64,000 bases of DNA from a virus (IMGVR_UViG_3300045988_175441:1-64000); one strand, 5' to 3'. Positions 250-59,175 are shown, counted from the first letter of the stretch. Notes: generated from the sequence alone by a model not told the origin. A program made the numbers and translations.

Positions 250-441
250 CTCGCATTTTTTTGTGTCAGCTTGCTATATTTTGGTGTATCTTTACTCATT
301 TTCTGTGTATGTTTATTATCTTTTTGTGTCGGTGTATTATCTTTTTATACCGTTGTCTTTCCTCGTTTTCCCTTTTGTAATATCTCGCTTATCTCTTTGT
401 GTATAACGATTATCTTTTTGTGTAATGTGATTATTTTTAAG
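250..441 (+). repeat. orphan array of ~9 phased (~21 bp) degenerate direct repeats of the operator motif GATTATYTTTTTGTGT
   Basis: Units end in TGTGT(A/C) at 268, 289, 310, 330, 403 and 424. Best copies are 313-330 and 408-423. No conserved promoter is adjacent. The array sits between two + strand hairpin terminators. Confidence 0.7.
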
Positions 442-1307: not shown

Positions 1308-1391
1308 TTATGTTTATATTATACACTCTTTTTTAAATTTTGTCAACTACTTTTGCAACTTTTTTATGTTTTTTGATTATTTTTTTGTGTT
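1308..1391 (-). promoter_or_regulatory. class-1 promoter module with upstream operator repeats
   Basis: -35 TTGACA (rc 1341-1346), 17-nt spacer, -10 TATAAT (rc 1318-1323). Conserved core is AAAAAGAGTGTATAATATAAACATAAA. Operator copies at 1375-1391 and a degenerate one at 1355-1370. Confidence 0.8.
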
Positions 1392-2396: not shown

Positions 2397-2489
2397 TATG
2401 ATTATATTATACACTCTTTTTTAATCTTTGTCAACATTTTTTATAATATTTTGATTATTTTTTTGTGTTGCGCGTGATTTTTTATAGTG
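2397..2489 (-). promoter_or_regulatory. class-1 promoter module with upstream operator repeats
   Basis: -35 rc at 2429-2434, 17-nt spacer, -10 rc at 2406-2411. Operator GATTATTTTTTTGTGTT at 2453-2469 plus a partial copy at 2471-2489. Confidence 0.8.
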
Positions 2490-4585: not shown

Positions 4586-4676
4586 TTTATGTTTATATTA
4601 TACACCCTTTTATAATCGCTGTCAACTAATTTGCGTTATTTTTTCGTGTTTTTTTATTATTTTTTTATGTTGTGTT
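4586..4676 (-). promoter_or_regulatory. class-1 promoter module with upstream operator repeats
   Basis: -35 rc at 4620-4625, 17-nt spacer, -10 rc at 4597-4602. Operator-like copies at 4633-4650 and 4654-4676. Confidence 0.8.
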
Positions 4677-5552: not shown

Positions 5553-5638
5553 TTTATGATTATATTATACACTCTTTCTAGGAAATTGTCAATATTTTAT
5601 CTCATTTTTCAGTGTTTCTGTATTATATTTTTGTGTTC
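5553..5638 (-). promoter_or_regulatory. class-1 promoter module with upstream operator repeats
   Basis: -35 rc at 5587-5592, 17-nt spacer, -10 rc at 5564-5569. Operator-like copies at 5597-5616 and 5620-5638. Confidence 0.8.
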
Positions 5639-7946: not shown

Positions 7947-8050
7947 TTTATGGTTATATTATACACCTCTTTTTATTTCTTGTCAACACTTTTTATTATT
8001 TTTTTGTGTTTTTTAATTATATTATTGTGTTGCGCGTGATTTTTGCTGTT
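7947..8050 (-). promoter_or_regulatory. class-1 promoter module with three upstream operator repeats
   Basis: -35 rc at 7981-7986, 17-nt spacer, -10 rc at 7958-7963. Operator copies at 7993-8010, 8014-8032 and 8033-8050, about 21 bp apart. Confidence 0.8.
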
Positions 8051-10131: not shown

Positions 10132-10410
10132 TTAAGCATTGACTTTTTCTTTTAAAGCCTTACCTGCTTTAAATGCAGGAACTTTGCTTGCCTTGATCGT
10201 GAGTTCTTTTCCTGTTTGTGGATTACGACCTTTACGCTCTGCACGATTGCGAACTTCAAAGATACCAAAGCCATCAATACGGACTTTTTCGCCTTCTGCC
10301 AAGTGTCCAGCGATTGTTTTGAATACAAATTCAACAGCTTCTTTAGAAGCCGTTTTAGTCAAACCCAACTCGCTTGCCATTGACTCGTAAATATCACGTT
10401 TTGCCTTCAT
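10132..10410 (-). CDS. hup: HU-family DNA-binding protein (92 aa)
   Basis: [44 protein letters not shown] is the canonical HU/IHF arm and C-terminus. Confidence 0.93.
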
Positions 10411-18560: not shown

Positions 18561-18589
18561 ATAATACCATTATTATTTCTATCTTACAA
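18561..18589 (-). promoter_or_regulatory. promoter of the leftward transfer operon
   Basis: The minus strand reads TTGTAA-17-TGGTATTAT. It is divergent from the parA promoter, which has the same AATGGTATTAT -10 region. Confidence 0.55.
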
Positions 18590-18647
18590 CTATATAAATA
18601 AAGGTTTTTATAATTTTAAAAAAATTAAACTTTTTTTATCTTTTCTA

Positions 18648-18750
18648 TTGACATGAGTTTTTCATTATGGTATTATTAAATCGTGTTAAGTGATTATATT
18701 TTTGTGTCTGATGATTATTTTTTGATTTATCTCAACACAAAAAGATAACC
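18648..18750 (+). promoter_or_regulatory. parA promoter with three downstream operator copies
   Basis: TTGACA (18648-18653), 17-nt spacer, TGGTATTAT (-10 at 18671-18676). Operators at 18692-18707 and 18713-18728 (direct) and 18734-18750 (inverted). Confidence 0.7.
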
Positions 18751-18779
18751 ACAATCTTATATTATTTCAGGAGTATATT

Positions 18780-19622
18780 ATGAAAGTTGTCACTGTCTCT
18801 TCCCTTAAAGGGGGAGTAGGGAAATCCGACCTCTCAACAATAATAGCCGATTTCCTTTCATACTATGGTAGGGTTTTATTGATTGACGCAAATCGTCAAG
18901 GAGACACGTCTAAACGGTTTATCTATCAAGAAAACGAAGAAGGAAAAACTGTTGATATTTCTTCTGAGGAAAATCTCTTTGAAAATATCTTCCGTAAAAA
19001 GCCTGTTGTTCCTTTGACTGTCAAAGACAACCTTGACCTACTTGTAGCTACTAAGAGCTTGAAAGAGGTCGAAGCTCACGTTGAACACATGGAACGTAAA
19101 AGTCCACTTATCTTCAAACGCTGGCTTAAACGTTCTAAACTGAAAGACTACTACAAGTATGTAGTGATCGACACTCACAATAGCGAAGGTATCTTGCTTG
19201 ATAACTTCTACCTAGCTAGTGACCTGTTAATCGCAGTTGCAGGTTCAGGGCGTTGCGAAATGGACGGAGCTATCGGTGTATATGACCGTGTAGAAGCTCT
19301 TAAAAATGATGATAACCTTGTCAATGATGATGACGAGCCTATCATGAAAGCTAAAGTCGTCTTTGTTGGGAACTTGCTTAAGTCTGGTGGTGGTTCTCAT
19401 GGCGTTACTGCTACAAATGAATACCTAGAACAGACCAAGGATAATGAACTATTCATTACTAATATCTGGGAGCGTAACATTTTCCGTGACGCAAGCGCAG
19501 AAAACAAAACGGTTTTTGACATTATGAAGCGCTCTAAGTATCGTAATAAAAGTTTTGAAAAATACTTTGCCAAGCTACAAGAAAGCCTTGAAACAATCAA
19601 GCACGCTATTGACGTAGCATAA
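18780..19622 (+). CDS. parA: ParA/Soj-family partition ATPase (280 aa)
   Basis: Deviant Walker A SLKGGVGKSDLS, then LLIDANRQGD. Confidence 0.9.
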   Translation: MKVVTVSSLKGGVGKSDLSTIIADFLSYYGRVLLIDANRQGDTSKRFIYQENEEGKTVDISSEENLFENIFRKKPVVPLTVKDNLDLLVATKSLKEVEAHVEHMERKSPLIFKRWLKRSKLKDYYKYVVIDTHNSEGILLDNFYLASDLLIAVAGSGRCEMDGAIGVYDRVEALKNDDNLVNDDDEPIMKAKVVFVGNLLKSGGGSHGVTATNEYLEQTKDNELFITNIWERNIFRDASAENKTVFDIMKRSKYRNKSFEKYFAKLQESLETIKHAIDVA

Positions 19623-19636
19623 ATTAAACATATTTT

Positions 19637-19695
19637 GATTATCATTTTGTGTTGGGATATTATTTTTATAATCATTTCAACACAATAGAATAATC
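19637..19695. promoter_or_regulatory. operator cluster between parA and the RHH gene
   Basis: GATTATCATTTTGTGTT at 19637-19653, a degenerate copy at 19656-19673 and an inverted copy AACACAATAGAATAATC at 19679-19695. Confidence 0.6.
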
Positions 19696-19742
19696 TTGAA
19701 ACACTATTTTATAATTCAGAAATTAAGAAAGAGGAAATTAAA

Positions 19743-20291
19743 ATGGCATTTAAACTACCAACTAAACAACCTACTAAAACAAACAAGAGAATTGTCTTGG
19801 ACGCTATTGATACAGACGAACCAACACCTGTTGAAGCTCCTAAGAAGAAAGTTGCTAAGAAACCTGCTAAAAAGAAAGCAGAAGCGAAGAAAGAGCCTGT
19901 TGTAGAAACTACAGAGCAGACCAACACTTTCTTCCATAAGCTCCAAATTAGTGAGCCTAAACATGAAAAACTTTCAACAAATATCTCAGACGCAAACTTG
20001 CGTAAGCTAGAGCGTCTGATTAAAGCAGGTTGCCAAAACAAATCTAAGGCAATCGGAGCAATCCTTGACGCTTTTGACGTGGATAAGGCTATTGAAGAAC
20101 CTACATTCTTTGTAAAGAACACCATCACGAACGATTCACGCCACAATCGTCTCAATATCTCCATGACACCTTCTCAACGTGAGAAGCTAATGCGTGTAGC
20201 TCATGCAGGACTTGGAAATATTGCCCTTGCGTTCTCATGTATCTTGAACGCCTTTGACGTGGAAGAAGCCTTGAAGAATATGGAAGAATAA
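19743..20291 (+). CDS. tandem ribbon-helix-helix protein with Lys-rich N-terminal tail (182 aa); candidate centromere-binding protein and global repressor
   Basis: Two internal repeats fit a strand-helix-helix pattern: KLSTNISDANLRKLERLIKAG..SKAIGAILDAFDVDKAIEE and RLNISMTPSQREKLMRVAHAG..NIALAFSCILNAFDVEEALKN. It lies immediately downstream of parA. Confidence 0.55.
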   Translation: MAFKLPTKQPTKTNKRIVLDAIDTDEPTPVEAPKKKVAKKPAKKKAEAKKEPVVETTEQTNTFFHKLQISEPKHEKLSTNISDANLRKLERLIKAGCQNKSKAIGAILDAFDVDKAIEEPTFFVKNTITNDSRHNRLNISMTPSQREKLMRVAHAGLGNIALAFSCILNAFDVEEALKNMEE

Positions 20292-20317
20292 GCTAGATTA
20301 TTTTCTAGCTTATTTTT
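20291..20317 (+). terminator. intrinsic terminator
   Basis: AGCTAGA (20291-20297) / TCTAGCT (20304-20310), followed by TATTTTT. Confidence 0.6.
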
Positions 20318-20376
20318 ATTATCTTTTTGTGTTACTGGACACCTTTTTATGTGTTTATGTATTATTTTTACGTTTT
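20317..20376 (+). promoter_or_regulatory. three direct operator copies downstream of the par genes
   Basis: Copies end at 20333, 20355 and 20376, giving 21-22 bp phasing. Confidence 0.55.
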
Positions 20377-20384
20377 AAGAAATT

Positions 20385-20414
20385 AAAAAAACGTGTTATA
20401 AAACACGCTTTTTT
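20385..20414. terminator. bidirectional terminator between convergent genes
   Basis: ACGTGTT (20391-20397) / AACACG(C)T (20402-20409), flanked by A7 and T6. Confidence 0.6.
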
Positions 20415-20790
20415 AATTCCCTGAAATAATCTTCCCTGTTGCTGAATCGAAGTCTATTTTCAGTTCTTTCAAATATTTCTTGACGGTTGGCTCTTGGACG
20501 TTGAGCGCCATAGCAATCTGAGCAACACTCTTAAAGCTACCCTTCTTAACACCTGCAAGTAAGGCTGTCTGTCGGTCAGATTTCCCCATAGATGATGATA
20601 AGCCCATGTTTGACTGAGCGTTCCGTAAACCTGTTCCTCTTGACGCTTCTCTTGAATAATCGGCAATTTCTCTACTAGACATGACCTTACGCTCGCTTCT
20701 ACGAGTGATGACGCTTGGATCATACGTTGTCACGACCTCGCCTGTACTTGTACTACTCTTTTTGAAAAAATCGTTAGGATTGTACCCCAT
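20413..20790 (-). CDS. DNA-binding protein with C-terminal helix-turn-helix (125 aa)
   Basis: SVAQIAMALNVQEPTVKKYLKEL is a typical HTH. The N-terminal half is Ser/Arg-rich and probably disordered. Confidence 0.55.
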   Translation of the reverse strand: MGYNPNDFFKKSSTSTGEVVTTYDPSVITRRSERKVMSSREIADYSREASRGTGLRNAQSNMGLSSSMGKSDRQTALLAGVKKGSFKSVAQIAMALNVQEPTVKKYLKELKIDFDSATGKIISGN

Positions 20791-20938: not shown

Positions 20939-21190
20939 ATGGAAACAGAATACATTGAGAAATTGATTGAGTTTGCTTGTAACCGTATCATGACTGACCT
21001 GAAAGAAGGGAAGTTTACTGCCTACTTTATAGCGCAACAAATCGGTATTACTCGCAAGTCTGTCCTACACTTAGTAGAGAACGGTTGGGAGCAAGCACGA
21101 TACAGTACGATTACTGGCTTGATTGAGTTTTACGAAAAACACTATGGAGTTATCAGTCTCCCTAAAACTGATGAAGATTACAAACTATAA
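20939..21190 (+). CDS. small HTH protein (83 aa)
   Basis: FIAQQIGITRKSVLHLVENG is an HTH-like segment. RBS is AAAGGAGCAAC. Confidence 0.5.
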   Translation: METEYIEKLIEFACNRIMTDLKEGKFTAYFIAQQIGITRKSVLHLVENGWEQARYSTITGLIEFYEKHYGVISLPKTDEDYKL

Positions 21191-21199
21191 GGAGTACCT

Positions 21200-23830
21200 A
21201 TGAGTTCCAAAAGTTCAAAGAAGAAAAAGAAAAAGAAACTACAGAGGTATTACAAGAACGGTAAGAACGTTTATCCTTACGCAAAGGCTTCTAGGTTTTT
21301 GTGGGGTTCAGGATTTACCGTTACTATCCTTGCAGGGTTAATCGTAGCAACCCAACTGATACTGTTCCTGTTACAAAAACTAGCCTTAATGATTCAGGGG
21401 GTAGTAGGATTTAATAGTAAGCTAGGTAAAAACCTAGACAACTTTATCTACATAAAACTACCTTTGGGTGGGATTTTAAAACCCTTATTGGCTGTCCTGC
21501 TGTTTATTGTTCTTGCTTATCTGGTAACTATTGCCTTACGTCATCACGAAGGAGAACTACAGCCCTTTAAAGACGATAACATGGCTAGAGCTATCCGTAG
21601 AGACGTTATCAAAAACCTAGAGCTAAACGTACTGGACTATGACGACAAAGGCAAGATCAAGAACTCTAAACAGGATATAAAAGCTCGTGAGATATTAAGA
21701 CGTATGGCTATTGAAGTCCATACCAGAAAAGAAGTAAACGGAAGTGACTTTCTTTCAATCGCAACCGTCAAGATCGAACGACCAAAAAACAAGGCTATCC
21801 GTAAAGTGCTTGAAGGCACGTTCTTTAAGGACTTACCTAGTGAGTTGACTTTTGCGACAGAGGAGCTGTTTGCCTTCTCAGAACGCTTGACTGAAAAAGA
21901 GTTCTATTTCTTTGAAGCGAAGGCTATCGTAACCGAAGAATACGTCTATAAGATTGAGGAAGCGCAGAAGAAACTACAAGAAGCTCTTGGCAAAGGTAAA
22001 AAGTCTGGCAATGGTTCTGATGAAGTTGAAATTGTTGATACAGGTATTTTCACAAAAGAAAAAGCCTCTTGGGATATTGAGGTTCTGTACGATAAGAAAC
22101 TACAAGAAAAGATCGAAGAACAAACCAAACTTGCAAATGAAGAAGTCGCAAACCTCTATCTTTCACTTGAAACCTTTATCAGTTCTAACGAAAAAGTAAA
22201 CCTGCAATTTGTTAGTATGAGAGCAACAAACTCTAACGCTCAATTTACTTACACGAAGCCAAAAGGTGTAAATAACATGGGTACAGAGCAGATGAAGGAG
22301 AACTTGGAAAGTGACTTGGGTAAGCAGGATATAAATATTACTCTAAGAGCAGGTCAGATTATCATTCAGATTCCACTTGATAATAAGATTACTGCTGACG
22401 CTTACACCAACTTTATGAAAGCCTTTTTTGGCAAGAAAGACTTGCCACCACTACAAGCCTTAGTTGGGGTTGATACAGAAGGTGCACCAAGAACTTATGA
22501 CCTTGCGACAGCTCCACATATCCTGACAGCAGGTACAACTGGTTCTGGTAAGTCGGTTGGTATCAACATGATTTATTTGTCTATCATCTTGCGTAATAGC
22601 CCTGATGTTGTTAAATTCATCATCATTGATCCGAAGAAAACAGAGTTTACACCTTACAAGCGAAGCCCTTATCTCTATACAGACGTTATTACAGATATGG
22701 ACGGTGCTAAAAATGCCTTTAATGCTGTTGTAACTGAAATGGAGCGAAGAAATAGCTTGTTTGAGGAAATTGGGGTTCGTAATCTACAGACCTACAACCA
22801 GAAAGTATCTCCTGAAAAGAGAGAGCCTTACCTTATCCTGATTGCAGACGAGGTAGCAGACCTTATCATGACAAACGGAGACGAGGTAGAGGATTCAATG
22901 CAACGTCTAGGTCAAAAAGCCCGTTCAGCAGGTATCTTGATTCACATTGCAACTCAGACACCACGAGCTGATATTATCAAGGGTAAAATTAAGGCTAACT
23001 TGCCTTCTCAGATTGTCTATAAGGTTGCTAACAGCATTGAAAGTGATATTGCGATTGGAGAATCAGGAGCAGAACGCTTGCTTGGTAAAGGAGACACTTA
23101 CGTTAAGTGGTCGGATAACCCTAACCTTGTTCGTGTTCAAGGTGTATTCCTGACAGATGAAAATATCAATGACATTATTGATTCAACGATTCAAAAATAT
23201 CCTGATGAACGTTACTACAATGAACGTGTACCTATGGACGCTTTTGAAGATGGATTCATCAAACCTAAAGAACTTGGGGATATTTCAAAAGGTTCAGTTT
23301 ATCGCTACGCCATCAAGCACCAAAAAAGTCCTGTCATAGACGAGGACATGGACGAGCAGGACATAGTTATTCCTAGCCAAGAAAAGCCAAAGGGTACACC
23401 TGCTATTGCTTCTGCTCAACCTTACGAAACAACGAGTGTTCACAAAGAGAGTTTTGAGGAGTACAGGAAGCGTTATGAAGAAAAGAACGCCCAAACTGCC
23501 CTAGAGCTAGATGACATACTAGGCACTCGAAAGCGCAAAGTAGAAGCCTTGATAAACCAGATGAACCTTGATAAAGAAAAAGAACAGGAACAGGAGCAAG
23601 AAAAGGAAATTCCACAACTAGATCATGAGGTGGAAGAAGCGATTGAGGAACGTGTCTCACATACTGAGCCTGAGCCTACAACACCTGTTGACAAGGAAGC
23701 TATTGCTAATGAACTCTATCCTGATGGCACTACTCCAACCGAAGAAGTGAAGAAGGATAACTCAATCCTTCCTAAACCAATTCCGAAGGATTGGAAGTTC
23801 AGAAAAACTGGAAATAGAGGGAAAATGTAG
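21200..23830 (+). CDS. FtsK/SpoIIIE-family DNA translocase, candidate type IV coupling protein (876 aa)
   Basis: N-terminal TM segments. Walker A GTTGSGKS, Walker B LILIADEVADL, and IHIATQTPRADIIKGKIKANLPSQIVYKV...GAERLLGKGD, which matches the FtsK motor signature. Glu/Lys-rich tail. Confidence 0.85.
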   Translation: MSSKSSKKKKKKKLQRYYKNGKNVYPYAKASRFLWGSGFTVTILAGLIVATQLILFLLQKLALMIQGVVGFNSKLGKNLDNFIYIKLPLGGILKPLLAVLLFIVLAYLVTIALRHHEGELQPFKDDNMARAIRRDVIKNLELNVLDYDDKGKIKNSKQDIKAREILRRMAIEVHTRKEVNGSDFLSIATVKIERPKNKAIRKVLEGTFFKDLPSELTFATEELFAFSERLTEKEFYFFEAKAIVTEEYVYKIEEAQKKLQEALGKGKKSGNGSDEVEIVDTGIFTKEKASWDIEVLYDKKLQEKIEEQTKLANEEVANLYLSLETFISSNEKVNLQFVSMRATNSNAQFTYTKPKGVNNMGTEQMKENLESDLGKQDINITLRAGQIIIQIPLDNKITADAYTNFMKAFFGKKDLPPLQALVGVDTEGAPRTYDLATAPHILTAGTTGSGKSVGINMIYLSIILRNSPDVVKFIIIDPKKTEFTPYKRSPYLYTDVITDMDGAKNAFNAVVTEMERRNSLFEEIGVRNLQTYNQKVSPEKREPYLILIADEVADLIMTNGDEVEDSMQRLGQKARSAGILIHIATQTPRADIIKGKIKANLPSQIVYKVANSIESDIAIGESGAERLLGKGDTYVKWSDNPNLVRVQGVFLTDENINDIIDSTIQKYPDERYYNERVPMDAFEDGFIKPKELGDISKGSVYRYAIKHQKSPVIDEDMDEQDIVIPSQEKPKGTPAIASAQPYETTSVHKESFEEYRKRYEEKNAQTALELDDILGTRKRKVEALINQMNLDKEKEQEQEQEKEIPQLDHEVEEAIEERVSHTEPEPTTPVDKEAIANELYPDGTTPTEEVKKDNSILPKPIPKDWKFRKTGNRGKM

Positions 23831-29311: not shown

Positions 29312-29363
29312 GACGATTTTGACACCCTCTAAAAGCGCATGGTTGAGCGATTCTATTTTTATT

Positions 29364-29517
29364 GCACAACCGAAAACTGGGGTTTGCACAACCGAAAACT
29401 GGGGTTTGCACAACCGAAAACTGGGGTTTGCACAACCGAAAACTGGGGTTTGCACAACCGAAAACTGGGGTTTGCACAACCGAAAACTGGGGTTTGCACA
29501 ACCGAAAACTGGGGGTT
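29364..29517 (+). repeat. seven tandem 22-bp iterons (GCACAACCGAAAACTGGGGTTT), theta-replication origin
   Basis: Six perfect copies plus a seventh with one extra G. They lie directly upstream of the rep gene. Confidence 0.92.
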
Positions 29518-29686: not shown

Positions 29687-29717
29687 AGGTTCGTAAATAC
29701 AAGGAAAGATGATTATT

Positions 29718-31058
29718 ATGAGTGAATTAACAGAAAAAACAAACGAATTAGTGGAGAATCAGTCTGTTACAGATTTAATTGATAAGCAGAGAAACATTCT
29801 TGCTAAGAGTAAAATTCTAAAGCTATCTAACCTAGCAAATAGAATGACACCAATCCAGAATGCTATTTTCTCTTTAGCCTTACGAAATGTAGTAATTGAT
29901 GGGGATAGAGCTATAACAGAAGTTCAGGTATCAGAACTCCTAGAATTGATTAAAAGTTCTGAGTATAGCAAATTCAACAGAACAGCAATCAATAGAGATA
30001 AAAAAGCTATACAAGAAAACCATATCAATCTAATTGATGAAAAATTCTATGACAATGATCCAAATGGAAAATCAATATCAATAGGACTTTTTAGCTATTT
30101 TGAATATGAGCGAGGAAAGTTTATAGGAGTATTTAATTCTACTCCTGACCGTAAAGGAAAGACACCTATTCTTGATATTTTAAAATCTCAGGAAGTAAAT
30201 CCCTTGATGTATAACCTTAATACATTTTCAAAGTTATCTCCATCAGGTCAAATGTTATACGAGGAGCTTTTAATTTTTAGTGGACAGAATATTCGGTCTG
30301 CAAAATATGATATTGAAGGGTTGAAACAGTTGTTTAAGTCTAACGGAAAATCCATGAACCGTTACTACACTATCAATCAAAAGCACCTAAAAGGAGCGAT
30401 TGAAGATATTAACAAATATACTGATATGGACTTAGTTGTTAAACCTGTAAAAGAAGGGCGAGCTGTTACTGGGATTGAATTAGTCTGGTCTATTGATAAG
30501 ATTAAGTTGCAGGCTACTGAAGATCAACGTAAGACGCTACATGAATTGTATGTTCAACTTAAAAAACTAGAACCTACCTCAAAAGAAGATTTGTCTTTAT
30601 TGTATAGACTTGAAAATCCTCACTTGGTAAGTAAACAGGAAGCGCAAGGGCTTATTTCGATAGCTATTGGACGAGTAAGAAGTTTAGCTATTGAACAACA
30701 ACCTGCACTACCAAGTGTTCCAGAGAGAAAAGTAGTTGCTGATGTTGAGAAAGTAAAAGAGTTGTTCCCAAGTGTGGAGAAAAGACAACTTAATCTAGTT
30801 GCTACAACTATGCAGGACTTTCCAGAGGAAGAACAGGACGCTATCTTAGAGTATGCTTTGTTTTTAGGTAAACATAATAACGCTAGAAGCGTGAAATATA
30901 TCCTACACCTTCTTAATGGTTGGTTTATCGAGGGGATAAAAACAAAAGCTCAAGCAGTTGCCCTTCACGACCAAAACTACGGAGAACCCCTACCAGATGT
31001 TAGCAAGATAGAAATTTCAGATGAATTTAGAAATGCTATGGACTTATGGAAGGACTAA
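29718..31058 (+). CDS. replication initiator: Rep_3-like iteron-binding N-terminal region fused to a DnaD/DnaB_2-like C-terminal domain (446 aa)
   Basis: Positioned after the iterons. KLSNLANRMTPIQNAIFSLALRNV resembles the Rep_3 N-terminal signature. C-terminal SVKYILHLLNGWFIEGIKTKAQAVAL resembles the DnaD-like Yi..iL..W...gi.T motif. The second ATG was chosen for its 12-nt spacing from AAGGA. Confidence 0.75.
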   Translation: MSELTEKTNELVENQSVTDLIDKQRNILAKSKILKLSNLANRMTPIQNAIFSLALRNVVIDGDRAITEVQVSELLELIKSSEYSKFNRTAINRDKKAIQENHINLIDEKFYDNDPNGKSISIGLFSYFEYERGKFIGVFNSTPDRKGKTPILDILKSQEVNPLMYNLNTFSKLSPSGQMLYEELLIFSGQNIRSAKYDIEGLKQLFKSNGKSMNRYYTINQKHLKGAIEDINKYTDMDLVVKPVKEGRAVTGIELVWSIDKIKLQATEDQRKTLHELYVQLKKLEPTSKEDLSLLYRLENPHLVSKQEAQGLISIAIGRVRSLAIEQQPALPSVPERKVVADVEKVKELFPSVEKRQLNLVATTMQDFPEEEQDAILEYALFLGKHNNARSVKYILHLLNGWFIEGIKTKAQAVALHDQNYGEPLPDVSKIEISDEFRNAMDLWKD

Positions 31059-33157: not shown

Positions 33158-35788
33158 ATGACAAAGAAACAAAACGTGAAAGTTTGTTACCACAAAGAGC
33201 GAACGAAAAAGTCAAGGTTTAGGAGCAAGTCTGCTCTAGTATTGGCTCTTTTTGTAGTAAATGCAGTCCATACGTCAGGAGTGATACCAGTTATTCGTGA
33301 TGGCGTGATTGCTTATGCTGATGTTCACTACTCTTATTCTCCTGATGATGATTGTGGAGTGAACCAAGACGTAAAAGGTAAGAGCAAAAAAAACAACAAA
33401 GATAGCTCTACCTCTAATAGTCAGTCGTCAGATTCAATAGACGATACCGTTTGGACAAGAAAAGGTACGAAAGCCTATCAAAACGCCATAGACACGATCA
33501 ACTTTTGGAAAGAGCAAGGTCTTTCAGGGGTTGAAATTGCAGGTATTATCGGAAATATTGGTGGTGCTGAGAATACAACCTTTACCCTTGACCTGTCAGA
33601 AGAAGGTGGGGGAAGTGGTGGACTATATCGGTTTAACCCTTCTAGCAAATATACTAGTTGGAGTGGCTTTGATGGTAAATGGTCTGCTCAAAACCAAGGG
33701 GAGTTTGTCCTTTACTCAGAACCTCAATCTGTACTAGCGTATATTAACAAAAAGAACACTAGTCCGTCTCAATCTGCTGAGGATTGGGCGAACCTATACG
33801 AACGACCAGACGCAGGAGCTTTGGCAAATAGCTTGCAAGCTCGTAAAGACGCTTCTGAAAAAGCCTACAAGGTCTTTGAACTAGATAAAATCGAAGGCGA
33901 TTCTAAGAAGGTATCTACTTGGGGTGGCTCAAATGTTTCCCAAGATAAAAAGGTCAAAATCTCGGCAGAAGATGGCAATAAAAAGGGAACTAAGATTGAC
34001 CTTAAAGTTGCTATTAAGTGGTTTGAAGAAAGAGAAGGCAAGGTTACTTACAGTCAGGACGCAGGTAGTAGAAAAGGTCCTCTGCAATATGACTGTTCTT
34101 CCTCAATCTACATGGCTTTAGTCGAAGGTGGAGCAGGTAAGACAGCAGGCGATTATCCAGTCTCTACAGAAACAGAACATGAGTGGCTTCTACAAAATGG
34201 CTTTACTAAAGTCTATGAAGGCAAGTGGGGAGACAAGGGAGACGTTAAAGAGGTCAAAAAAGGCGACATTATTATCTGGGGAACTAAAGGTTCTTCTGGT
34301 GGCGACTTAGGGCATACTATGATTATGTATGACAATGAGACTATTATCCATAGCTCGGCAGGTCATAACGGTATCGCTCGTGACACTTACTCTAAATACC
34401 GTGATGAAGCAACAGACCATCAGACAGTATATGTTTACCGTTACTCAGGTTCAACCAACTTTAGCGAAGATGACGTTGAGAAGGTAGAAACAAAATGTAA
34501 ACCTAAGTGTGCTTACAATGACAGTTCAGAACGTGTGAAAGGCACGAATAGCTCAACAGACAGCAGTACCTCTACTTCTGGTAGTAAAGATACAGCAACA
34601 ATGTTGAATGAGTTTGCTAAAAAACATGAGCAAGCCTATGTTGAAAGTTGGCGTGTAGGTGGGTTCTTACCTTCTGCGTCTATCATTCAAACTATGATTG
34701 AGACTAGCTTCAATGAGAGCGTACCTTCATTCGGTCAGGCTCATAACATGGGTGGAGTTAAAACCTCTAAATTAGAGGACTTCTCAGAAACCATGAAGCT
34801 CTATGGTAAGGACGCTGTTGCCTTTTCAGGAGCAGGAACTACCGTTGGAGACAATACAGGTGGTACTTATACCTACTTCAAGAGTTTTGACGCAGGGATT
34901 GTAGGTAAAGCTGAGTTCATGGCACGTCAAACGCTCTATGACGGAGCGATTAACAACACGGACGCAAAAGCAGTCTTTAAGGCTATTGCTGATGGTGGTT
35001 GGGCGACAGATTCAAGCTATCAAGTCTCACTAAATAAGATGTACGACCAGTACGGAGAACAGCTCAAATGGTTAGATGAAAAAGCTATTGCTAAATATGG
35101 TAAGACACCATTTAAAAAAGGCTCTATTGCTGAAAGTAAAGATAAGGCAGTTGGGGCTAAGATGGGCGCTCATAGAGGTACAGCAGTTTGCGACACTAAC
35201 AGCAGTTCTGGTGGTGGAGACGGTTGGCAAAAAGCAGGTGGTTCAACAAGCTATACTTTAAATCTGTGGTGGAAAAAAGATGACCTACCCCCTGAAATGC
35301 AACAATATGCTCTTGATCCAGAGAGTGTAGGATTGAAATGGCGTTCTAAAGTGGGTTGGGAAGGAGCTTCTGCTTATATTTCAAGTGGATATACCGACCA
35401 ATGTACCACTCTAGCAAGTGCTTTGTTTGGGGCATTGTGGGAGAAAGACGGAAAAGCTATGGGCGATTCTCACGGTATGACAGGTAACGGTGTTGAAATG
35501 GCTAAACAGGTTGCTTCTAAATTCGGTAAGAGTACAACCAGTACACCGACAAGTGGAGATATTGTTTCTCTACAACCTAACCACGTTGCTATTGTCAGTC
35601 ACGTTTTCGATAACGGAGATATTCTTCTAGTGGAGCAGAACGTTCCTAACTATTCAGGTAACGGAGATAGCTTCACTTGGAACTACTCTTATATCACAAA
35701 AGCTACCCAAAAAGCGAAGAACTACGAATTTTGGAATCCATCATCAGAAGGCTACAAAGTAACAAGCAAAGCTAAGTCAGTAGGCTAA
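33158..35788 (+). CDS. multi-domain peptidoglycan hydrolase of the transfer apparatus (876 aa)
   Basis: N-terminal anchor followed by four domains. (1) Lysozyme-like (GIIGNIGGAENTTF...GGSGGLYRF). (2) NlpC/P60-like (YDCSSSIYMAL...GHTMIMYD). (3) Glucosaminidase-like (PSASIIQTMIETSFNES...GGWATDSSY). (4) C-terminal CHAP-like (GYTDQCTTLAS...PNHVAIVSHV). Confidence 0.8.
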   Translation: MTKKQNVKVCYHKERTKKSRFRSKSALVLALFVVNAVHTSGVIPVIRDGVIAYADVHYSYSPDDDCGVNQDVKGKSKKNNKDSSTSNSQSSDSIDDTVWTRKGTKAYQNAIDTINFWKEQGLSGVEIAGIIGNIGGAENTTFTLDLSEEGGGSGGLYRFNPSSKYTSWSGFDGKWSAQNQGEFVLYSEPQSVLAYINKKNTSPSQSAEDWANLYERPDAGALANSLQARKDASEKAYKVFELDKIEGDSKKVSTWGGSNVSQDKKVKISAEDGNKKGTKIDLKVAIKWFEEREGKVTYSQDAGSRKGPLQYDCSSSIYMALVEGGAGKTAGDYPVSTETEHEWLLQNGFTKVYEGKWGDKGDVKEVKKGDIIIWGTKGSSGGDLGHTMIMYDNETIIHSSAGHNGIARDTYSKYRDEATDHQTVYVYRYSGSTNFSEDDVEKVETKCKPKCAYNDSSERVKGTNSSTDSSTSTSGSKDTATMLNEFAKKHEQAYVESWRVGGFLPSASIIQTMIETSFNESVPSFGQAHNMGGVKTSKLEDFSETMKLYGKDAVAFSGAGTTVGDNTGGTYTYFKSFDAGIVGKAEFMARQTLYDGAINNTDAKAVFKAIADGGWATDSSYQVSLNKMYDQYGEQLKWLDEKAIAKYGKTPFKKGSIAESKDKAVGAKMGAHRGTAVCDTNSSSGGGDGWQKAGGSTSYTLNLWWKKDDLPPEMQQYALDPESVGLKWRSKVGWEGASAYISSGYTDQCTTLASALFGALWEKDGKAMGDSHGMTGNGVEMAKQVASKFGKSTTSTPTSGDIVSLQPNHVAIVSHVFDNGDILLVEQNVPNYSGNGDSFTWNYSYITKATQKAKNYEFWNPSSEGYKVTSKAKSVG

Positions 35789-35819: not shown

Positions 35820-35827
35820 GCCCTTAT

Positions 35828-35899
35828 GTCAAAAAAATAATCAAACGACACAAAAAAATAATACAAATACTTGACAAAATAATATTTTTGTGATTTAAT
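35828..35899 (+). promoter_or_regulatory. promoter of the rightward transfer operon with operator copies
   Basis: TTGACA (35871-35876), 17-nt spacer, TGATTTAAT. Operators at 35830-35842 and 35846-35864 upstream, and 35878-35893 overlapping the spacer. Confidence 0.65.
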
Positions 35900-55677: not shown

Positions 55678-55775
55678 ACAACACGAAAAAATAATACATG
55701 AGTACAAAAAAATAATCAAAAAATCATAAAAAGTGTTGACAAAAGATAAAAAGAGTGTATAATATAAATATAAAA
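55678..55775 (+). promoter_or_regulatory. class-1 promoter module with two upstream operator copies
   Basis: Operators ACAACACGAAAAAATAATAC (55678-55697) and GTACAAAAAAATAATC (55702-55717). TTGACA (55736-55741), 16-nt spacer, TATAAT (55758-55763). Confidence 0.8.
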
Positions 55776-58161: not shown

Positions 58162-58989
58162 ATGAAACTACGGTATGCTATCTGGGAACGATTAAAAAAG
58201 GCAAAAGAGGAGAAGGGGCTGACCTATCGTGAGTTATCAGAACGGACAGGTATCAGTCAGACAGCTCTTACAACTTTATTCTCAGTAAAACCAAACTGTA
58301 CGGTTGGAAGAATTATCAAGTTATGCAAGGCTTTAAACAGAGACTTGTCCTATGCGTTCGGAGAAGATACAGGAAAAGTTCTTGTCTATCCAGAAACAGA
58401 AAGAGAAGCGATCAACAATTTTTGGAAGCAGATTGATTCTTACTACTTGAACCCTAACGGACGCAAACATTACTCACGGAAGAAAGTCTATCGGTCAATG
58501 GGTAAGGCTTATTACAGGGCAGTAGGAGAAGATAATATCCATCTATCGCTTGACGTGGTGGAAAAATTCTCTAATCACTTGAAGATAAGTCCTTTGAACC
58601 TTATCTCAAAAACCTATAGCTTGGGTGGACGCTTGCACTTTAGGAAGCAAAACAGCCTAGTCTATCTACACTTACAGGACGGAAAGACAGATGTAGCAAC
58701 CTATATGATTGATGGCGACAATTCACGCTATAAAGTCGAAGATTGGCTCATGGGTATGCTTGCAGGAACAGGTGGACGAGTGCTGACCTTGACGGATATT
58801 AACGACAAGCAAAGTCAAGTTTGCCTAGAGTGGGGCGACAGTCTTATTCTACGCCTAGAAAAAAACGGTCAGGAGCTTTATTCTTACAAGTCAGAAAAAG
58901 ACAAGGCAAATGAACTACTAACAAAAATAAGCAGGAAGGAAAAAGGTTACGATTCATACTTGAACCTTTTAGAAGAAAAAGAAATATGA
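58162..58989 (+). CDS. XRE-type HTH protein with a ~200-aa C-terminal domain of unknown function (275 aa)
   Basis: LTYRELSERTGISQTALTTLF is an HTH. Confidence 0.6.
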   Translation: MKLRYAIWERLKKAKEEKGLTYRELSERTGISQTALTTLFSVKPNCTVGRIIKLCKALNRDLSYAFGEDTGKVLVYPETEREAINNFWKQIDSYYLNPNGRKHYSRKKVYRSMGKAYYRAVGEDNIHLSLDVVEKFSNHLKISPLNLISKTYSLGGRLHFRKQNSLVYLHLQDGKTDVATYMIDGDNSRYKVEDWLMGMLAGTGGRVLTLTDINDKQSQVCLEWGDSLILRLEKNGQELYSYKSEKDKANELLTKISRKEKGYDSYLNLLEEKEI

Positions 58990-59159
58990 AAGAAGAAAAT
59001 AGCAAGCTAGTATTTGCTATCATTGTGCTTGCGTCTCTACTACTTTCTGTTTATCTATCTGCTGTTGTGGTAGCTGTTGTAAAAGATGTATCAATTACAA
59101 CAGTTATCCATAATTGGCAGTCAGGAGCGCTTGATTTTTTGAAAAGCCTGATTGAGTAG
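58986..59159 (+). CDS. unannotated 57-aa single-TM membrane peptide
   Basis: ATGA overlap with the upstream stop. LVFAIIVLASLLLSVYLSAVVVAVV. Confidence 0.4.
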   Translation: MKEENSKLVFAIIVLASLLLSVYLSAVVVAVVKDVSITTVIHNWQSGALDFLKSLIE

Positions 59160-59175
59160 AAAGGAAAAAATATTT

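What the first reader, a model, noticed from the sequence alone, without database searches (positions are those of the whole stretch)
18561..20376. par locus with a single-chain tandem-RHH partner, bracketed by nine copies of the plasmid-wide operator
The parA gene (deviant Walker A KGGVGKS) is followed by a 182-aa protein. This protein has a Lys-rich N-terminal tail and two consecutive strand-helix-helix units: LSTNISDANLRKLERLIKAG..AIGAILDAF and LNISMTPSQREKLMRVAHAG..ALAFSCILNAF. That would make it a covalently linked RHH pseudo-dimer. The 17-bp motif AACACAAAAAAATAATC occurs three times between the parA promoter and its start codon (two direct, one inverted), three times between the two genes, and three times just downstream at 21-22 bp phasing. 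The same motif lies upstream of the -35 of most class-1 promoters and of the transfer-operon promoter at 35828-35899, always in the same orientation relative to transcription. This parallels omega of inc18 plasmids and KorB of IncP, where the centromere-binding protein doubles as a global repressor. The protein architecture here is different.
Basis: partly seen in the sequence, partly recalled or inferred. Interest (0 to 1): 0.68.

Follow-up and report, generated by a model that had tools for sequence, protein, structure and literature searches.

The report
Plasmid partition locus, double-RHH partner

Summary
parA (18780-19622, KGGVGKS) is followed by a 182-aa ORF (19743-20291). That ORF has a conserved N-terminal peptide, a disordered Lys-rich linker and two homologous beta-alpha-alpha units (hhalign E 1.5e-12). 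AlphaFold models the C-terminal 121 residues at pLDDT 84 and pTM 0.79. Foldseek's leading hits are the four known single-chain double-RHH families: F TraY, DndE, MJ0366 and VirC2. The 17-bp motif gives 18 matches against 1.2 expected by chance. Around par it forms 21-bp-phased arrays of 4, 4 and 3 units: five strong, two moderate, the rest degenerate. The first unit overlaps the parA -10. Motif cores are conserved in 15 relatives while the 4-bp spacers drift. The motif also lies upstream of 6 of 10 near-identical consensus promoters and of the 35871 promoter, co-oriented, with gaps of 7/8, 18 or 28 bp. A further 7-unit array lies between convergent terminators (251-424). Binding by the 182-aa protein, repression and partition are inferred, not shown. 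VirC1/VirC2 already pairs a ParA-like ATPase with a single-chain RHH, so the architecture has a precedent. Verdict: a new variant of the type Ib par / omega-like global-regulator theme.

The parts
18648..18676 (+). parA promoter: TTGACA (18648-18653), 17-bp spacer, TGg-TATTAT (-10 at 18671-18676)
   Evidence: Best promoter match in the region, 11 of 12 with an upstream TG. Conserved in all three clades.
18671..18750 (.). Array IG1: four 17-bp units in 21-bp register, 18671(-), 18692(-), 18713(-) and 18734(+), running from the -10 into the parA leader
   Evidence: PWM 11.0, 23.5, 6.6 and 24.1 bits. Cores conserved and spacers variable in 15 relatives. Same layout with a diverged motif in clades 2 and 3.
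18780..19622 (+). parA: 280-aa deviant-Walker-A ATPase (KGGVGKS) without an N-terminal HTH domain
   Evidence: Pfam AAA_31 2e-20 and CbiA. NCBIfam PrgP 1e-11, far below cutoff. PDB Borrelia PF-32 1.8e-11. Less than 31% identity to any PLSDB ParA.
19637..19716 (.). Array IG2: four units in 21-bp register, 19637(-), 19658(-), 19679(+) and 19700(+), between parA and the 182-aa gene
   Evidence: PWM 22.6, -1.4, 20.7 and 3.3 bits. 19637 and 19679 are nearly invariant in relatives. No terminator between the genes.
19743..20291 (+). 182-aa ParB-like protein with a single-chain double-RHH domain
   Evidence: No Pfam, NCBIfam, PHROG or PDB-sequence hit. Homologues only in three clades of the same plasmid family, always downstream of parA.
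19743..19808 (+). Conserved N-terminal peptide (residues 1-22, F-x-L-P-T-x-Q-P-x-K...DAI); candidate ParA-contact motif
   Evidence: F3, P6, T7, Q9, P10 and A21 are invariant, and L5, K12 and K15 nearly so, across clades that are 40-45% identical overall. The function is inferred.
19809..19964 (+). Disordered Lys-rich linker (KKKVAKKPAKKKAEAKK; TPKK-type repeats in clade 2)
   Evidence: pLDDT below 50 for residues 18-58. Length and sequence vary between clades.
19965..20096 (+). RHH unit 1 (residues 75-118): strand 75-82, helices 83-95 and 100-110, short helix 113-118
   Evidence: AlphaFold.
20139..20285 (+). RHH unit 2 (residues 133-181): strand 133-141, helices 143-157 and 160-170, C-terminal helix 173-181
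   Evidence: AlphaFold. Homologous to unit 1.
20284..20317 (+). Terminator-like hairpin after the 182-aa gene
20317..20376 (-). Array IG3: three units, 20317, 20339 and 20360, all (-), at 21-22-bp spacing
   Evidence: PWM 25.2, -6.2 and 11.0 bits. Conserved in most clade-1 relatives, absent in L020 and in clades 2 and 3.
251..424 (-). Remote 7-unit array (2 + 5 units; the five in 21-bp register) between convergent terminators, in a non-promoter context; candidate additional centromere
   Evidence: Retained in relative L031.
1375..1391 (-). Motif upstream of the class-1 promoter at 1346 (gap 28 bp to the -35)
2453..2469 (-). Motif upstream of the class-1 promoter at 2434 (gap 18 bp)
4634..4671 (-). 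Two units 21 bp apart upstream of the class-1 promoter at 4625 (gap 8 bp)
5621..5637 (-). Motif, plus a degenerate second unit at 5600, upstream of the class-1 promoter at 5592 (gap 7 bp from the degenerate unit)
7994..8031 (-). Two units upstream of the class-1 promoter at 7986 (gap 7 bp)
35826..35899 (+). Promoter region at 35871: two co-oriented units (35826, 35847) 7 bp upstream of TTGACA (35871-35876), plus an inverted unit (35878-35894, 11.9 bits) in the spacer that abuts the -10 (TGa-TTTAAT, 35894-35899)
55680..55717 (+). Two units upstream of the class-1 promoter at 55736 (gap 18 bp)

Best explanation
This is a type-Ib-like active partition cassette of a low-copy, iteron-controlled (Rep_3) plasmid.

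The centromere-binding partner of the ParA ATPase is not a dimer of small RHH subunits. It is one chain that carries two fused RHH units, so a monomer presents a complete, intrinsically asymmetric two-stranded ribbon.

Inferred mechanism:
1. The double-RHH domain reads the oriented, non-palindromic 17-bp site. Monomers line up on one DNA face on arrays with 21-bp (two-turn) spacing.
2. The array that starts in the parA -10 and runs into the leader shuts off parA-parB transcription (autoregulation).
3. The arrays of three or more units (IG1, IG2, IG3 and 251-424) serve as centromeres. The disordered tail, ending in the conserved N-terminal peptide, recruits ParA and stimulates its ATPase.
4. 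One to three co-oriented units sit at fixed helical phase upstream of the -35 of near-consensus promoters. An inverted unit sits inside the 35871 promoter. Together these put many operons under the same protein, most likely by repression, as with omega of pSM19035.

Shown here: the genes, the predicted fold, the internal duplication, the motif enrichment, phasing and conservation, and the promoter association. Inferred: who binds the motif, the sign of regulation, the ParA contact, and partition itself.
For: - ParA with a deviant Walker A and no HTH domain.
- The 182-aa gene lies immediately downstream with no intervening terminator.
- The pair is syntenic in three clades at 40-93% identity.
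- Double-RHH fold: pLDDT 84.3 and pTM 0.79. Foldseek hits TraY at probability 0.97-0.99 and TM up to 0.64, then DndE, MJ0366 and VirC2. Internal repeat E 1.5e-12.
- Motif: 18 matches against 1.2 expected. The sites are intergenic. Arrays are in 21-bp register at par. Cores are conserved while spacers vary in 15 relatives.
- The first unit overlaps the parA -10 in all three clades, although the motif sequence has changed between clades together with probable ribbon residues (N80 to R or I, S140 to K).
- A 7-unit array lies in a promoterless convergent intergenic region.
- Gaps from motif to -35 fall only in 7/8, 18 or 28/29 bp, both in the window and in relative L031.
- These promoters are already consensus TTGACA-17-TATAAT with an upstream TG, which favours repression over activation.
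- The Rep iterons are a different 22-bp repeat, so the motif is not the Rep site.
- Literature: RHH ParB omega uses repeat arrays (PMC9499535); it is described as both centromere-binding protein and global regulator in PMC3074150 (abstract listed).
Against: - There is no experimental or computational evidence that this protein contacts this motif.
- Other DNA-binding proteins are encoded: HTH_3 at 58162-58989, HTH-like ORFs at 20413-20790 and 20939-21190, and an HU/IHF-like gene at 10132-10410.
- Foldseek E-values are weak (0.1-0.7), and no sequence profile links the protein to any RHH family.
- Four of ten class-1 promoters lack the motif.
- In clade 2 the par-type motif was found only at par within about 30 kb, and class-1-like promoters there have no upstream motif.
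- Sites at about -43 to -59 coincide with the UP-element zone and are A-rich, so some promoter copies could act through DNA shape alone.
- I did not screen the whole element for a second par system.
Confidence: 0.58

Rival explanations
1. VirC1/VirC2-like role. The ParA-like ATPase and the double-RHH protein act mainly in DNA transfer, marking and delivering a transfer origin to the FtsK/SpoIIIE-type translocase encoded 900 bp downstream, rather than in vegetative partition. The protein would then be a TraY/VirC2-type accessory factor.
For: - The best structural matches are relaxosome or transfer accessory proteins, TraY and VirC2.
- VirC1/VirC2 are Par-like proteins co-opted for T-DNA transfer (PMC8406263).
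- ParA gives faint VirC1 hits.
- An FtsK/SpoIIIE ATPase gene (21200-23830) is a conserved neighbour.
Against: - The VirC1 hits are far below cutoff, and there is no VirC2 or TraY sequence match.
- No relaxase or T4SS family was detected in the ORFs tested.
- Sites are dispersed at many promoters and overlap the parA -10. That fits autoregulated par operons and global repressors, not a single oriT or overdrive site.
- A Rep_3 iteron plasmid of about 76 kb needs a partition system, and none other was seen.
Confidence: 0.13
2. The motif is the operator of a different plasmid or host regulator. The par operon is just one of its targets, and the 182-aa protein recognises some other centromere not identified here.
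For: - Several other candidate DNA-binding proteins are encoded.
- No direct link between protein and motif exists.
- Promoter-upstream dispersal was not seen in clade 2 although the par proteins are conserved there.
Against: - The densest clusters of sites bracket and separate the two par genes. No other repeat family lies near par.
- The layout, with the first unit in the -10 and 21-bp register, is kept in three clades while the motif sequence changes along with the ParB-like protein.
- The site is asymmetric and occurs in direct and inverted arrays, as for RHH centromere binders. It is not the dyad-symmetric site typical of HTH dimers.
Confidence: 0.17
3. Only the par-proximal arrays are protein sites. 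The copies upstream of class-1 promoters are UP-element or curved-DNA modules (phased A-tracts) that boost transcription without any plasmid protein.
For: - The sites occupy roughly -43 to -80 and are A-tract-rich.
- They sit at helical-phase gaps of 7/8, 18 and 28 bp. That pattern is expected for bent DNA or alpha-CTD contacts.
Against: - The non-A-tract flanks (AACAC ... TAATC) are as well conserved as the A-run, and the consensus is the same as at the par sites.
- Four otherwise identical class-1 promoters do without the motif.
- The 35871 promoter adds an inverted unit inside the core promoter.
Confidence: 0.1

Closest known systems
delta/omega of inc18 plasmid pSM19035 (type Ib ParA plus RHH ParB that is also a global regulator)
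   Same: - A Walker ParA of about 280-300 aa with a small non-HTH centromere-binding protein.
- Short non-palindromic sites in direct and inverted arrays.
- The arrays overlap promoters, so centromeres and operators are the same DNA.
- At least 4 contiguous repeats are needed for ATPase activation in pSM19035 (PMC9499535). Here the arrays have 3-7 units.
   Different: - Omega is a 71-aa homodimer with one RHH per chain. Here two RHH units are fused in one 182-aa chain.
- The repeat unit is 17 bp on a 21-bp pitch, not contiguous 7-bp heptads.
- No sequence similarity was detected.
VirC1/VirC2 of Agrobacterium Ti plasmids
   Same: - A ParA/MinD-like ATPase gene followed by a gene for a roughly 200-aa protein.
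- That protein's C-terminal roughly 120 residues form a single-chain RHH (PDB 2rh3), preceded by a non-RHH N-terminal part.
- 2rh3 is among the Foldseek hits, at 18% identity over 119 columns.
   Different: - VirC1/C2 bind the overdrive sequence and promote T-DNA processing and transfer, not partition (PMC8406263).
- The Foldseek match is weak (probability 0.25, TM 0.41).
- No Pfam or NCBIfam membership.
- No dispersed operator network is known to me for VirC2.
F-plasmid TraY (relaxosome accessory protein) and DndE
   Same: Two tandem RHH units plus a C-terminal helix in one chain, acting as a monomeric pseudo-dimer on asymmetric sites (PMC10853773). These are the best structural matches.
   Different: - TraY pairs with the relaxase TraI at oriT, and DndE with an ABC ATPase (DndD). 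Neither pairs with ParA.
- Neither has a Lys-rich N-terminal tail.
- Sequence identity is 6-14%.
ParF/ParG (TP228) and par2 of pB171 (type Ib; parC1 and parC2 flank the operon)
   Same: - The operon is autoregulated by the centromere-binding protein.
- A flexible N-terminal tail stimulates the ATPase.
- Repeat arrays lie on both sides of the genes (from my own knowledge of these systems, not tested here).
   Different: Those binding proteins are homodimeric single-RHH proteins of about 76-90 aa, and their repeats are 4-6 bp.
KorB/IncC of IncP-1 plasmids
   Same: A partition protein whose sites are spread over the plasmid and control many operons, some of them immediately upstream of the -35 (from my own knowledge).
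   Different: KorB is an HTH ParB/Srx-type protein that binds a 13-bp palindrome. No ParB-type domain is present here.
PrgP/PrgO (pCF10) and RepB/RepC (pAD1)
   Same: Best NCBIfam hit of the ParA (PrgP, 1e-11). These are Gram-positive plasmid par operons with repeat arrays flanking the genes (the latter from my own knowledge).
   Different: The score of 44.6 bits is far below the 400-bit cutoff, so this is not an equivalog. The partner protein is unrelated.

Membership tests
Type Ib partition systems (small ParA + RHH centromere-binding protein) | ParA/MinD-type ATPase with a deviant Walker A (KGGxxK[ST]) and no N-terminal HTH domain | tested here: met
   KGGVGKS at residues 10-16. AAA_31 and CbiA cover residues 1-177 with no extra domain.
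Type Ib partition systems (small ParA + RHH centromere-binding protein) | Downstream, co-transcribed gene for a small centromere-binding protein with an RHH DNA-binding fold | tested here: met
   The gene lies 121 bp downstream with no terminator between. Predicted RHH units.
Type Ib partition systems (small ParA + RHH centromere-binding protein) | The centromere-binding protein is a homodimer with one RHH per chain ('dimeric RHH', PMC9499535) | tested here: not met
   Two homologous RHH units in one chain. The model pairs the two strands within one chain. Oligomeric state was not measured.
Type Ib partition systems (small ParA + RHH centromere-binding protein) | Arrays of short repeats next to the operon that overlap its promoter (centromere and autoregulation) | tested here: met
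   Arrays of 4, 4 and 3 units at 18671-18750, 19637-19716 and 20317-20376. The first unit overlaps the -10.
Type Ib partition systems (small ParA + RHH centromere-binding protein) | Plasmid stabilisation; stimulation of the ParA ATPase by the centromere-binding protein's N-terminal tail | not testable with these tools
   Only the conservation of the N-terminal 22 residues across clades is seen.
Single-chain double-RHH proteins (TraY / VirC2 / DndE / MJ0366) | Two tandem beta-alpha-alpha units in one polypeptide forming a pseudo-dimer | tested here: met
   hhalign unit 1 against unit 2: 97.7%, E 1.5e-12. AlphaFold pLDDT 84.3, pTM 0.79.
Single-chain double-RHH proteins (TraY / VirC2 / DndE / MJ0366) | Structural similarity to solved members | tested here: met
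   All hits with meaningful TM-scores are TraY, DndE, MJ0366, VirC2 and one CRISPR-associated protein (6oaw). TraY has probability 0.97-0.99 and TM 0.55-0.64, but E-values are only 0.1-0.7.
Single-chain double-RHH proteins (TraY / VirC2 / DndE / MJ0366) | Sequence-profile membership of one of these families (Pfam or PDB sequence) | tested here: not met
   No Pfam, NCBIfam or PDB-sequence hit. There is only a non-significant match (E 0.7) of the stacked-unit profile to the RHH protein HP0222.
VirC1/VirC2 transfer-promoting Par-like pair | ParA-like ATPase belonging to the VirC1 family | tested here: not met
   Pfam VirC1 E 0.004 over residues 1-39 only. NCBIfam VirC1 19.8 bits against a cutoff of 313.
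VirC1/VirC2 transfer-promoting Par-like pair | Functional link to a relaxase, a T4SS and a border or oriT-adjacent site | tested here: inconclusive
   No relaxase or T4SS family was found in about 40 ORFs scanned, but most proteins of the element match nothing. Two FtsK/SpoIIIE ATPases are present.
Centromere-binding proteins that double as global regulators (omega, KorB) | The same binding motif at the par locus and at multiple unrelated promoters of the plasmid | tested here: met
   Seven promoter regions plus the par arrays and the array at 251-424. Also in relative L031. Not seen in the sampled part of clade 2.
Centromere-binding proteins that double as global regulators (omega, KorB) | Demonstrated repression of those promoters by the protein | not testable with these tools
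   Needs reporter assays or RNA-seq.
HTH ParB (ParB/Srx, CTP-dependent clamps) | ParB N-terminal/Srx domain and HTH centromere-binding domain | tested here: not met
   No such Pfam or NCBIfam domains. The predicted fold is RHH.

The most novel reading that the evidence does not exclude
A third structural solution for ParB. A monomeric, covalently fused double-RHH centromere-binding protein has built-in asymmetry that lets it read an oriented 17-bp site. Arrays on a two-turn (21-bp) pitch act as centromeres. Single, orientation- and phase-fixed copies upstream of consensus promoters act as a plasmid-wide transcriptional switch. The system operates in a very prevalent, still uncultivated family of 75-90-kb plasmids of oral streptococci whose other proteins are almost all unannotatable.
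Probability: 0.4. Interest if true: 0.72.

Novelty: new variant of a known kind. Interest (0 to 1): 0.56.

Why it matters
A current description of the field sorts ParB proteins into two groups: dimeric HTH and dimeric RHH (PMC9499535).

A ParA partner that is a fused double RHH would show that the RHH class can work as a monomer. That changes how centromere arrays, stoichiometry and ParA activation should be modelled. One N-terminal activating tail would serve each binding site instead of two, and the site would have a defined polarity.

It would also link partition proteins evolutionarily to the TraY/VirC2 accessory proteins of conjugation.

The oriented, phase-locked copies at promoters offer a clean system for asking how a centromere-binding protein controls transcription from upstream of the -35.

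The host element is abundant in human oral metagenomes: hundreds of contigs, 280 clusters at 90% identity for a neighbouring gene. It is absent from PLSDB, from GTDB representative genomes and from phage collections, and IMG/VR files it as viral. Any functional foothold in it is therefore useful.

Tried and rejected
- **Near-identity and tblastn searches** of the locus and of the 182-aa protein against PLSDB and INPHARED found nothing. ParA has only relatives below 31% identity.
- **GTDB representative genomes** hold no homologue, so no host could be named. Choline-binding and AgI/II proteins on a relative's contig only suggest mitis-group Streptococcus.
- **Sequence-profile routes to RHH** failed (Pfam, NCBIfam, PHROGs, PDB sequences, and a stacked-unit profile). 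There was only a non-significant HP0222 match.
- **Covariation test in sister clades.** I spent the last homologue search on the neighbouring 386-aa protein, but only clade-1 hits were listed. A metagenome scan did give four long clade-2 loci. Those show the clade-2 par motif only at par and no motif at two class-1-like promoters. The test of a 'plasmid-wide operator that co-varies with ParB' is therefore negative or uninformative for the roughly 30 kb sampled, not positive.
- **Scanning IMG/VR for the motif** was uninformative. A 15-base A-rich pattern occurs by chance in many unrelated contigs.
- **The motif as Rep iteron** was rejected. The iterons are a different 22-bp repeat, present in 7 copies.
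- **IHF-site reading of the motif** was rejected. The WATCAANNNNTTR consensus fits only one copy (by inspection).
It is the loop and stem of the terminator hairpin.
- **An oriT next to the 251-424 array** was considered. The 113-149 hairpin is followed by a T-run on the + strand and looks like a terminator.
- **Rfam** found nothing in the window.
Full report
**Observation**

parA (18780-19622, +) encodes a 280-aa ATPase with the deviant Walker A 'KGGVGKS'. It matches AAA_31 (2e-20) and CbiA and has no extra N-terminal domain.

A 121-bp spacer without a terminator follows. Then comes a 182-aa ORF (19743-20291, +).

The parA promoter is the best sigma-70 match in the area. It reads TTGACA (18648-18653), 17 bp, TGg-TATTAT (18671-18676).

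**The 182-aa protein**

It has no Pfam, NCBIfam, PHROG or PDB-sequence match. An exhaustive search of 1.8 billion representative proteins, plus two word-indexed searches, found homologues in only three clades. These are 75-93%, about 45% and about 40% identical. In every contig examined the gene follows parA in the same gene neighbourhood.

The alignment shows three parts:
- An N-terminal peptide that stays nearly invariant across the clades (F3, L5, P6, T7, Q9, P10, K12, K15 ... A21).
- A Lys-rich linker of variable length and sequence, with TPKK-type repeats in clade 2.
- A conserved C-terminal 110 residues.

The C-terminal part consists of two homologous units (residues about 73-120 and 132-179). 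BLASTP gives E 5e-10 and 34% identity over 47 ungapped residues. hhalign of the unit alignments gives 97.7% probability and E 1.5e-12.

AlphaFold2 with a 31-sequence alignment predicts residues 18-58 as disordered. It predicts the rest as strand-helix-helix(-helix), a linker helix, then strand-helix-helix-helix. Modelling residues 62-182 alone gives mean pLDDT 84.3 and pTM 0.79. These are the only two strands in the model, so they must pair with each other. That is the RHH ribbon formed within one chain.

Foldseek against the PDB returns F-plasmid TraY first (probability 0.97-0.99, TM up to 0.64). The identity of chain 9f0x_E as TraY was verified. DndE, MJ0366 and VirC2 follow. These are the proteins the literature describes as two RHH units in one chain (PMC10853773; PMC5425179).

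The E-values are weak (0.1-0.7), so the fold assignment rests on several things together. They are the confident model, the internal duplication, the RHH sequence pattern and the make-up of the hit list. I regard the tandem-RHH reading as well supported but not proven.

**The motif**

AACACAAAAAAATAATC with up to 3 mismatches occurs 18 times against 1.2 expected. A PWM built from these sites finds 19 sites at 12 bits or more against 1.1 expected. All strong sites are intergenic.

Around par the units lie in exact 21-bp register, with PWM bits:
- 18671, 18692, 18713 (all -) and 18734 (+): 11.0, 23.5, 6.6, 24.1.
- 19637, 19658 (-) and 19679, 19700 (+): 22.6, -1.4, 20.7, 3.3.
- 20317, 20339, 20360 (all -): 25.2, -6.2, 11.0.

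That makes five strong, two moderate and four degenerate in-phase units. The first unit contains the parA -10 hexamer: ATAATA read on the other strand is TATTAT.

In 15 distinct clade-1 relatives the motif cores are conserved while the 4-bp spacers between units vary. That is the signature of selected binding sites.

In clades 2 and 3 the layout is kept: consensus -35, a unit overlapping the -10, further units at 21-22 bp, and more units between the genes. The sequence has changed, however. It reads AATACAAAACGTAATT / AAACAAGAAAAGTAATT in clade 2 and AWCACACAAATATAATW in clade 3.

The predicted ribbon residues also differ between clades: T79/N80 become A/R or V/I, and S140 becomes K. S78, S82, N138 and T142 are invariant. 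This is consistent with co-evolution of protein and site, but it is only a correlation over three clades.

**Motif copies away from par**

The window has ten almost identical promoters of the form TTGACA-17-TATAAT with an upstream TG, followed by ATAAnCATAAA. Six of them carry one to three co-oriented units upstream of the -35: 1346, 2434, 4625, 5592, 7986 and 55736. The gap from the last unit to the -35 is 7, 7, 8, 18, 18 or 28 bp.

The promoter at 35871 has two upstream units at a 7-bp gap. It also has an inverted unit (11.9 bits) inside the spacer, next to the -10.

A relative (L031, 84-96% identical) shows the same gap classes: 7, 8, 8, 18, 18, 18 and 29 bp. This includes promoters that are absent from the window.

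A further array of seven units (two plus five, the five in 21-bp register) lies at 251-424. It sits between two convergent terminators with no promoter nearby. The motif therefore cannot be merely part of a promoter cassette.

The Rep_3 initiator gene (29709-31058) has its own, unrelated iterons. These are seven perfect 22-bp copies at 29362-29514, so the motif is not the Rep site.

**Context**

The element is a Rep_3 iteron plasmid of roughly 75-90 kb with 38% G+C. It is found on hundreds of human metagenome contigs, among them samples labelled ZHAN15 and VALL22, HMP-type IMG samples and one NCBI MAG.

It is absent from PLSDB, INPHARED and GTDB representative genomes. IMG/VR lists it as 'UViG'.

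Most of its proteins match no Pfam or PHROG family. The recognisable ones are:
- two FtsK/SpoIIIE ATPases;
- a multi-domain cell-wall hydrolase;
- SSB;
- an HU/IHF-like protein;
- LPXTG and AgI/II adhesins;
- a ClpB-like AAA+ protein;
- an SNF2 helicase;
- a nuclease.

A relative also carries a choline-binding protein, which suggests a mitis-group Streptococcus host (inference).

**Most likely mechanism (confidence about 0.58)**

This is a type-Ib-like partition cassette in which the centromere-binding protein is a monomeric, fused double-RHH protein.

The ribbon reads the oriented 17-bp site, and arrays on a two-turn pitch place the monomers on one DNA face. The array from the -10 into the leader autoregulates parAB. 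Arrays of three or more units serve as centromeres. The conserved N-terminal peptide on the disordered Lys-rich tail contacts ParA and activates it.

The phase-locked copies at near-consensus promoters, plus the inverted unit inside the 35871 promoter, give plasmid-wide control. Repression is the more likely sign, because these promoters need no activation.

Only the anatomy is shown here. Binding, the sign of regulation and partition itself are inferred by analogy with omega of pSM19035 (PMC9499535; PMC3074150).

**Rival explanations**
- A VirC1/VirC2-like transfer function. VirC2 and TraY are the structural neighbours, and VirC1/C2 are Par-like proteins co-opted for transfer (PMC8406263).
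- A different regulator binds the motif.
- The promoter copies act as UP-element or bent DNA.

Each has specific evidence against it, listed in the rival section. None is excluded.

**Comparison and novelty**

Functionally the system resembles delta/omega: an RHH centromere binder that also acts as a global regulator, with arrays overlapping promoters. It also resembles pB171 and pAD1-type operons, which are flanked by repeat arrays.

Structurally the partner belongs with TraY, VirC2, DndE and MJ0366. It is not a member of any of these families by sequence. It also fails the 'homodimeric single-RHH' feature of known type Ib binding proteins.

Because VirC1/VirC2 already couples a ParA-like ATPase to a single-chain RHH, the architecture is not categorically new. 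What appears new to me is its use as a likely partition and global-regulator protein. Also new are the 17-bp oriented site on a 21-bp pitch and the strict phase and orientation rule at promoters.

I rate it a new variant of a known kind, with interest 0.56.

Noticed in passing
window 29362-29514 (and rep gene 29709-31058): Seven perfect tandem copies of a 22-bp iteron (TTGCACAACCGAAAACTGGGGT) lie upstream of a Rep_3-type initiator (Rep3_C 1.8e-11). This is the replication origin of an iteron-controlled theta plasmid. The repeat is unrelated to the 17-bp motif.
   Followed up: partly
window promoters at 1346, 2434, 4625, 5592, 7986 (-) and 50505, 55736, 57488, 60849, 62372 (+): Ten near-identical consensus promoters (TTGACA-17-TATAAT with an upstream TG, followed by ATAAnCATAAA) mostly follow terminators. 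They drive small, often acidic proteins of unknown function, plus SSB. The arrangement resembles a leading-region or early-gene set. Clade 2 has the same promoter type without the upstream motif (L027 13888 and 17308).
   Followed up: partly
window 251-424 (-): A seven-unit array of the 17-bp motif sits between two convergent terminators (hairpins at 439-458 and 113-149) with no promoter nearby. It is the largest array in the window and a candidate stand-alone centromere, 18 kb from the par genes.
   Followed up: partly
whole window; loci L001-L031, L151: The element is a prevalent plasmid family of about 75-90 kb in human metagenomes (hundreds of contigs in three clades). Most of its proteins have no Pfam or PHROG match. 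It is absent from PLSDB, INPHARED and GTDB representative genomes, and IMG/VR catalogues it as viral (UViG).
   Followed up: partly
Only a ClpB-like double AAA+ protein (42050-44284) was recognised. The 1389-aa, 642-aa, 380-aa and 331-aa products match nothing.
   Followed up: partly
window 21200-23830 and 59152-60681: There are two FtsK/SpoIIIE-family ATPases. The first is a conserved neighbour of par, preceded by two small HTH-like ORFs (20413-20790 on the - strand, 20939-21190 on the + strand). This may point to a TraB/TcpA-type DNA translocase for transfer.
   Followed up: no
window 33158-35788: An 876-aa multi-domain peptidoglycan hydrolase (Phage_lysozyme2, Amidase_5, Glucosaminidase, CHAP) lies immediately upstream of the motif-controlled 35871 promoter.
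   Followed up: no
L151 (NCBI MAG GCA_003556085.1, contig QWCT01000270.1) 11606-16556: A clade-1 relative carries an AgI/II-type adhesin and a choline-binding-repeat protein next to the HU-like gene. This hints at a mitis-group Streptococcus host. The adhesin slot is variable between relatives (601-aa LPXTG protein in the window, 1039-1103-aa AgI/II in others).
   Followed up: no
clade-2 homologues P0050, P0058-P0075 (alignment A2): In clade 2 the disordered linker is built of TPKK / KKTxxKK repeats that resemble histone H1 tails and minor-groove-binding SPKK motifs. The linker might contact the central A-tract of the site or bridge DNA.
   Followed up: no
L030 (BNJU01000524.1, 145,475-bp contig): One clade-2 relative lies on a 145-kb contig, almost twice the usual size. 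It could be a larger plasmid, a co-integrate or an integrated copy.
   Followed up: no
window 10132-10410 (-): A plasmid-encoded HU/IHF-like protein (IHF-alpha model 1.6e-27) is conserved in all three clades. It is another architectural DNA-binding protein that could cooperate at the A-rich arrays.
   Followed up: no
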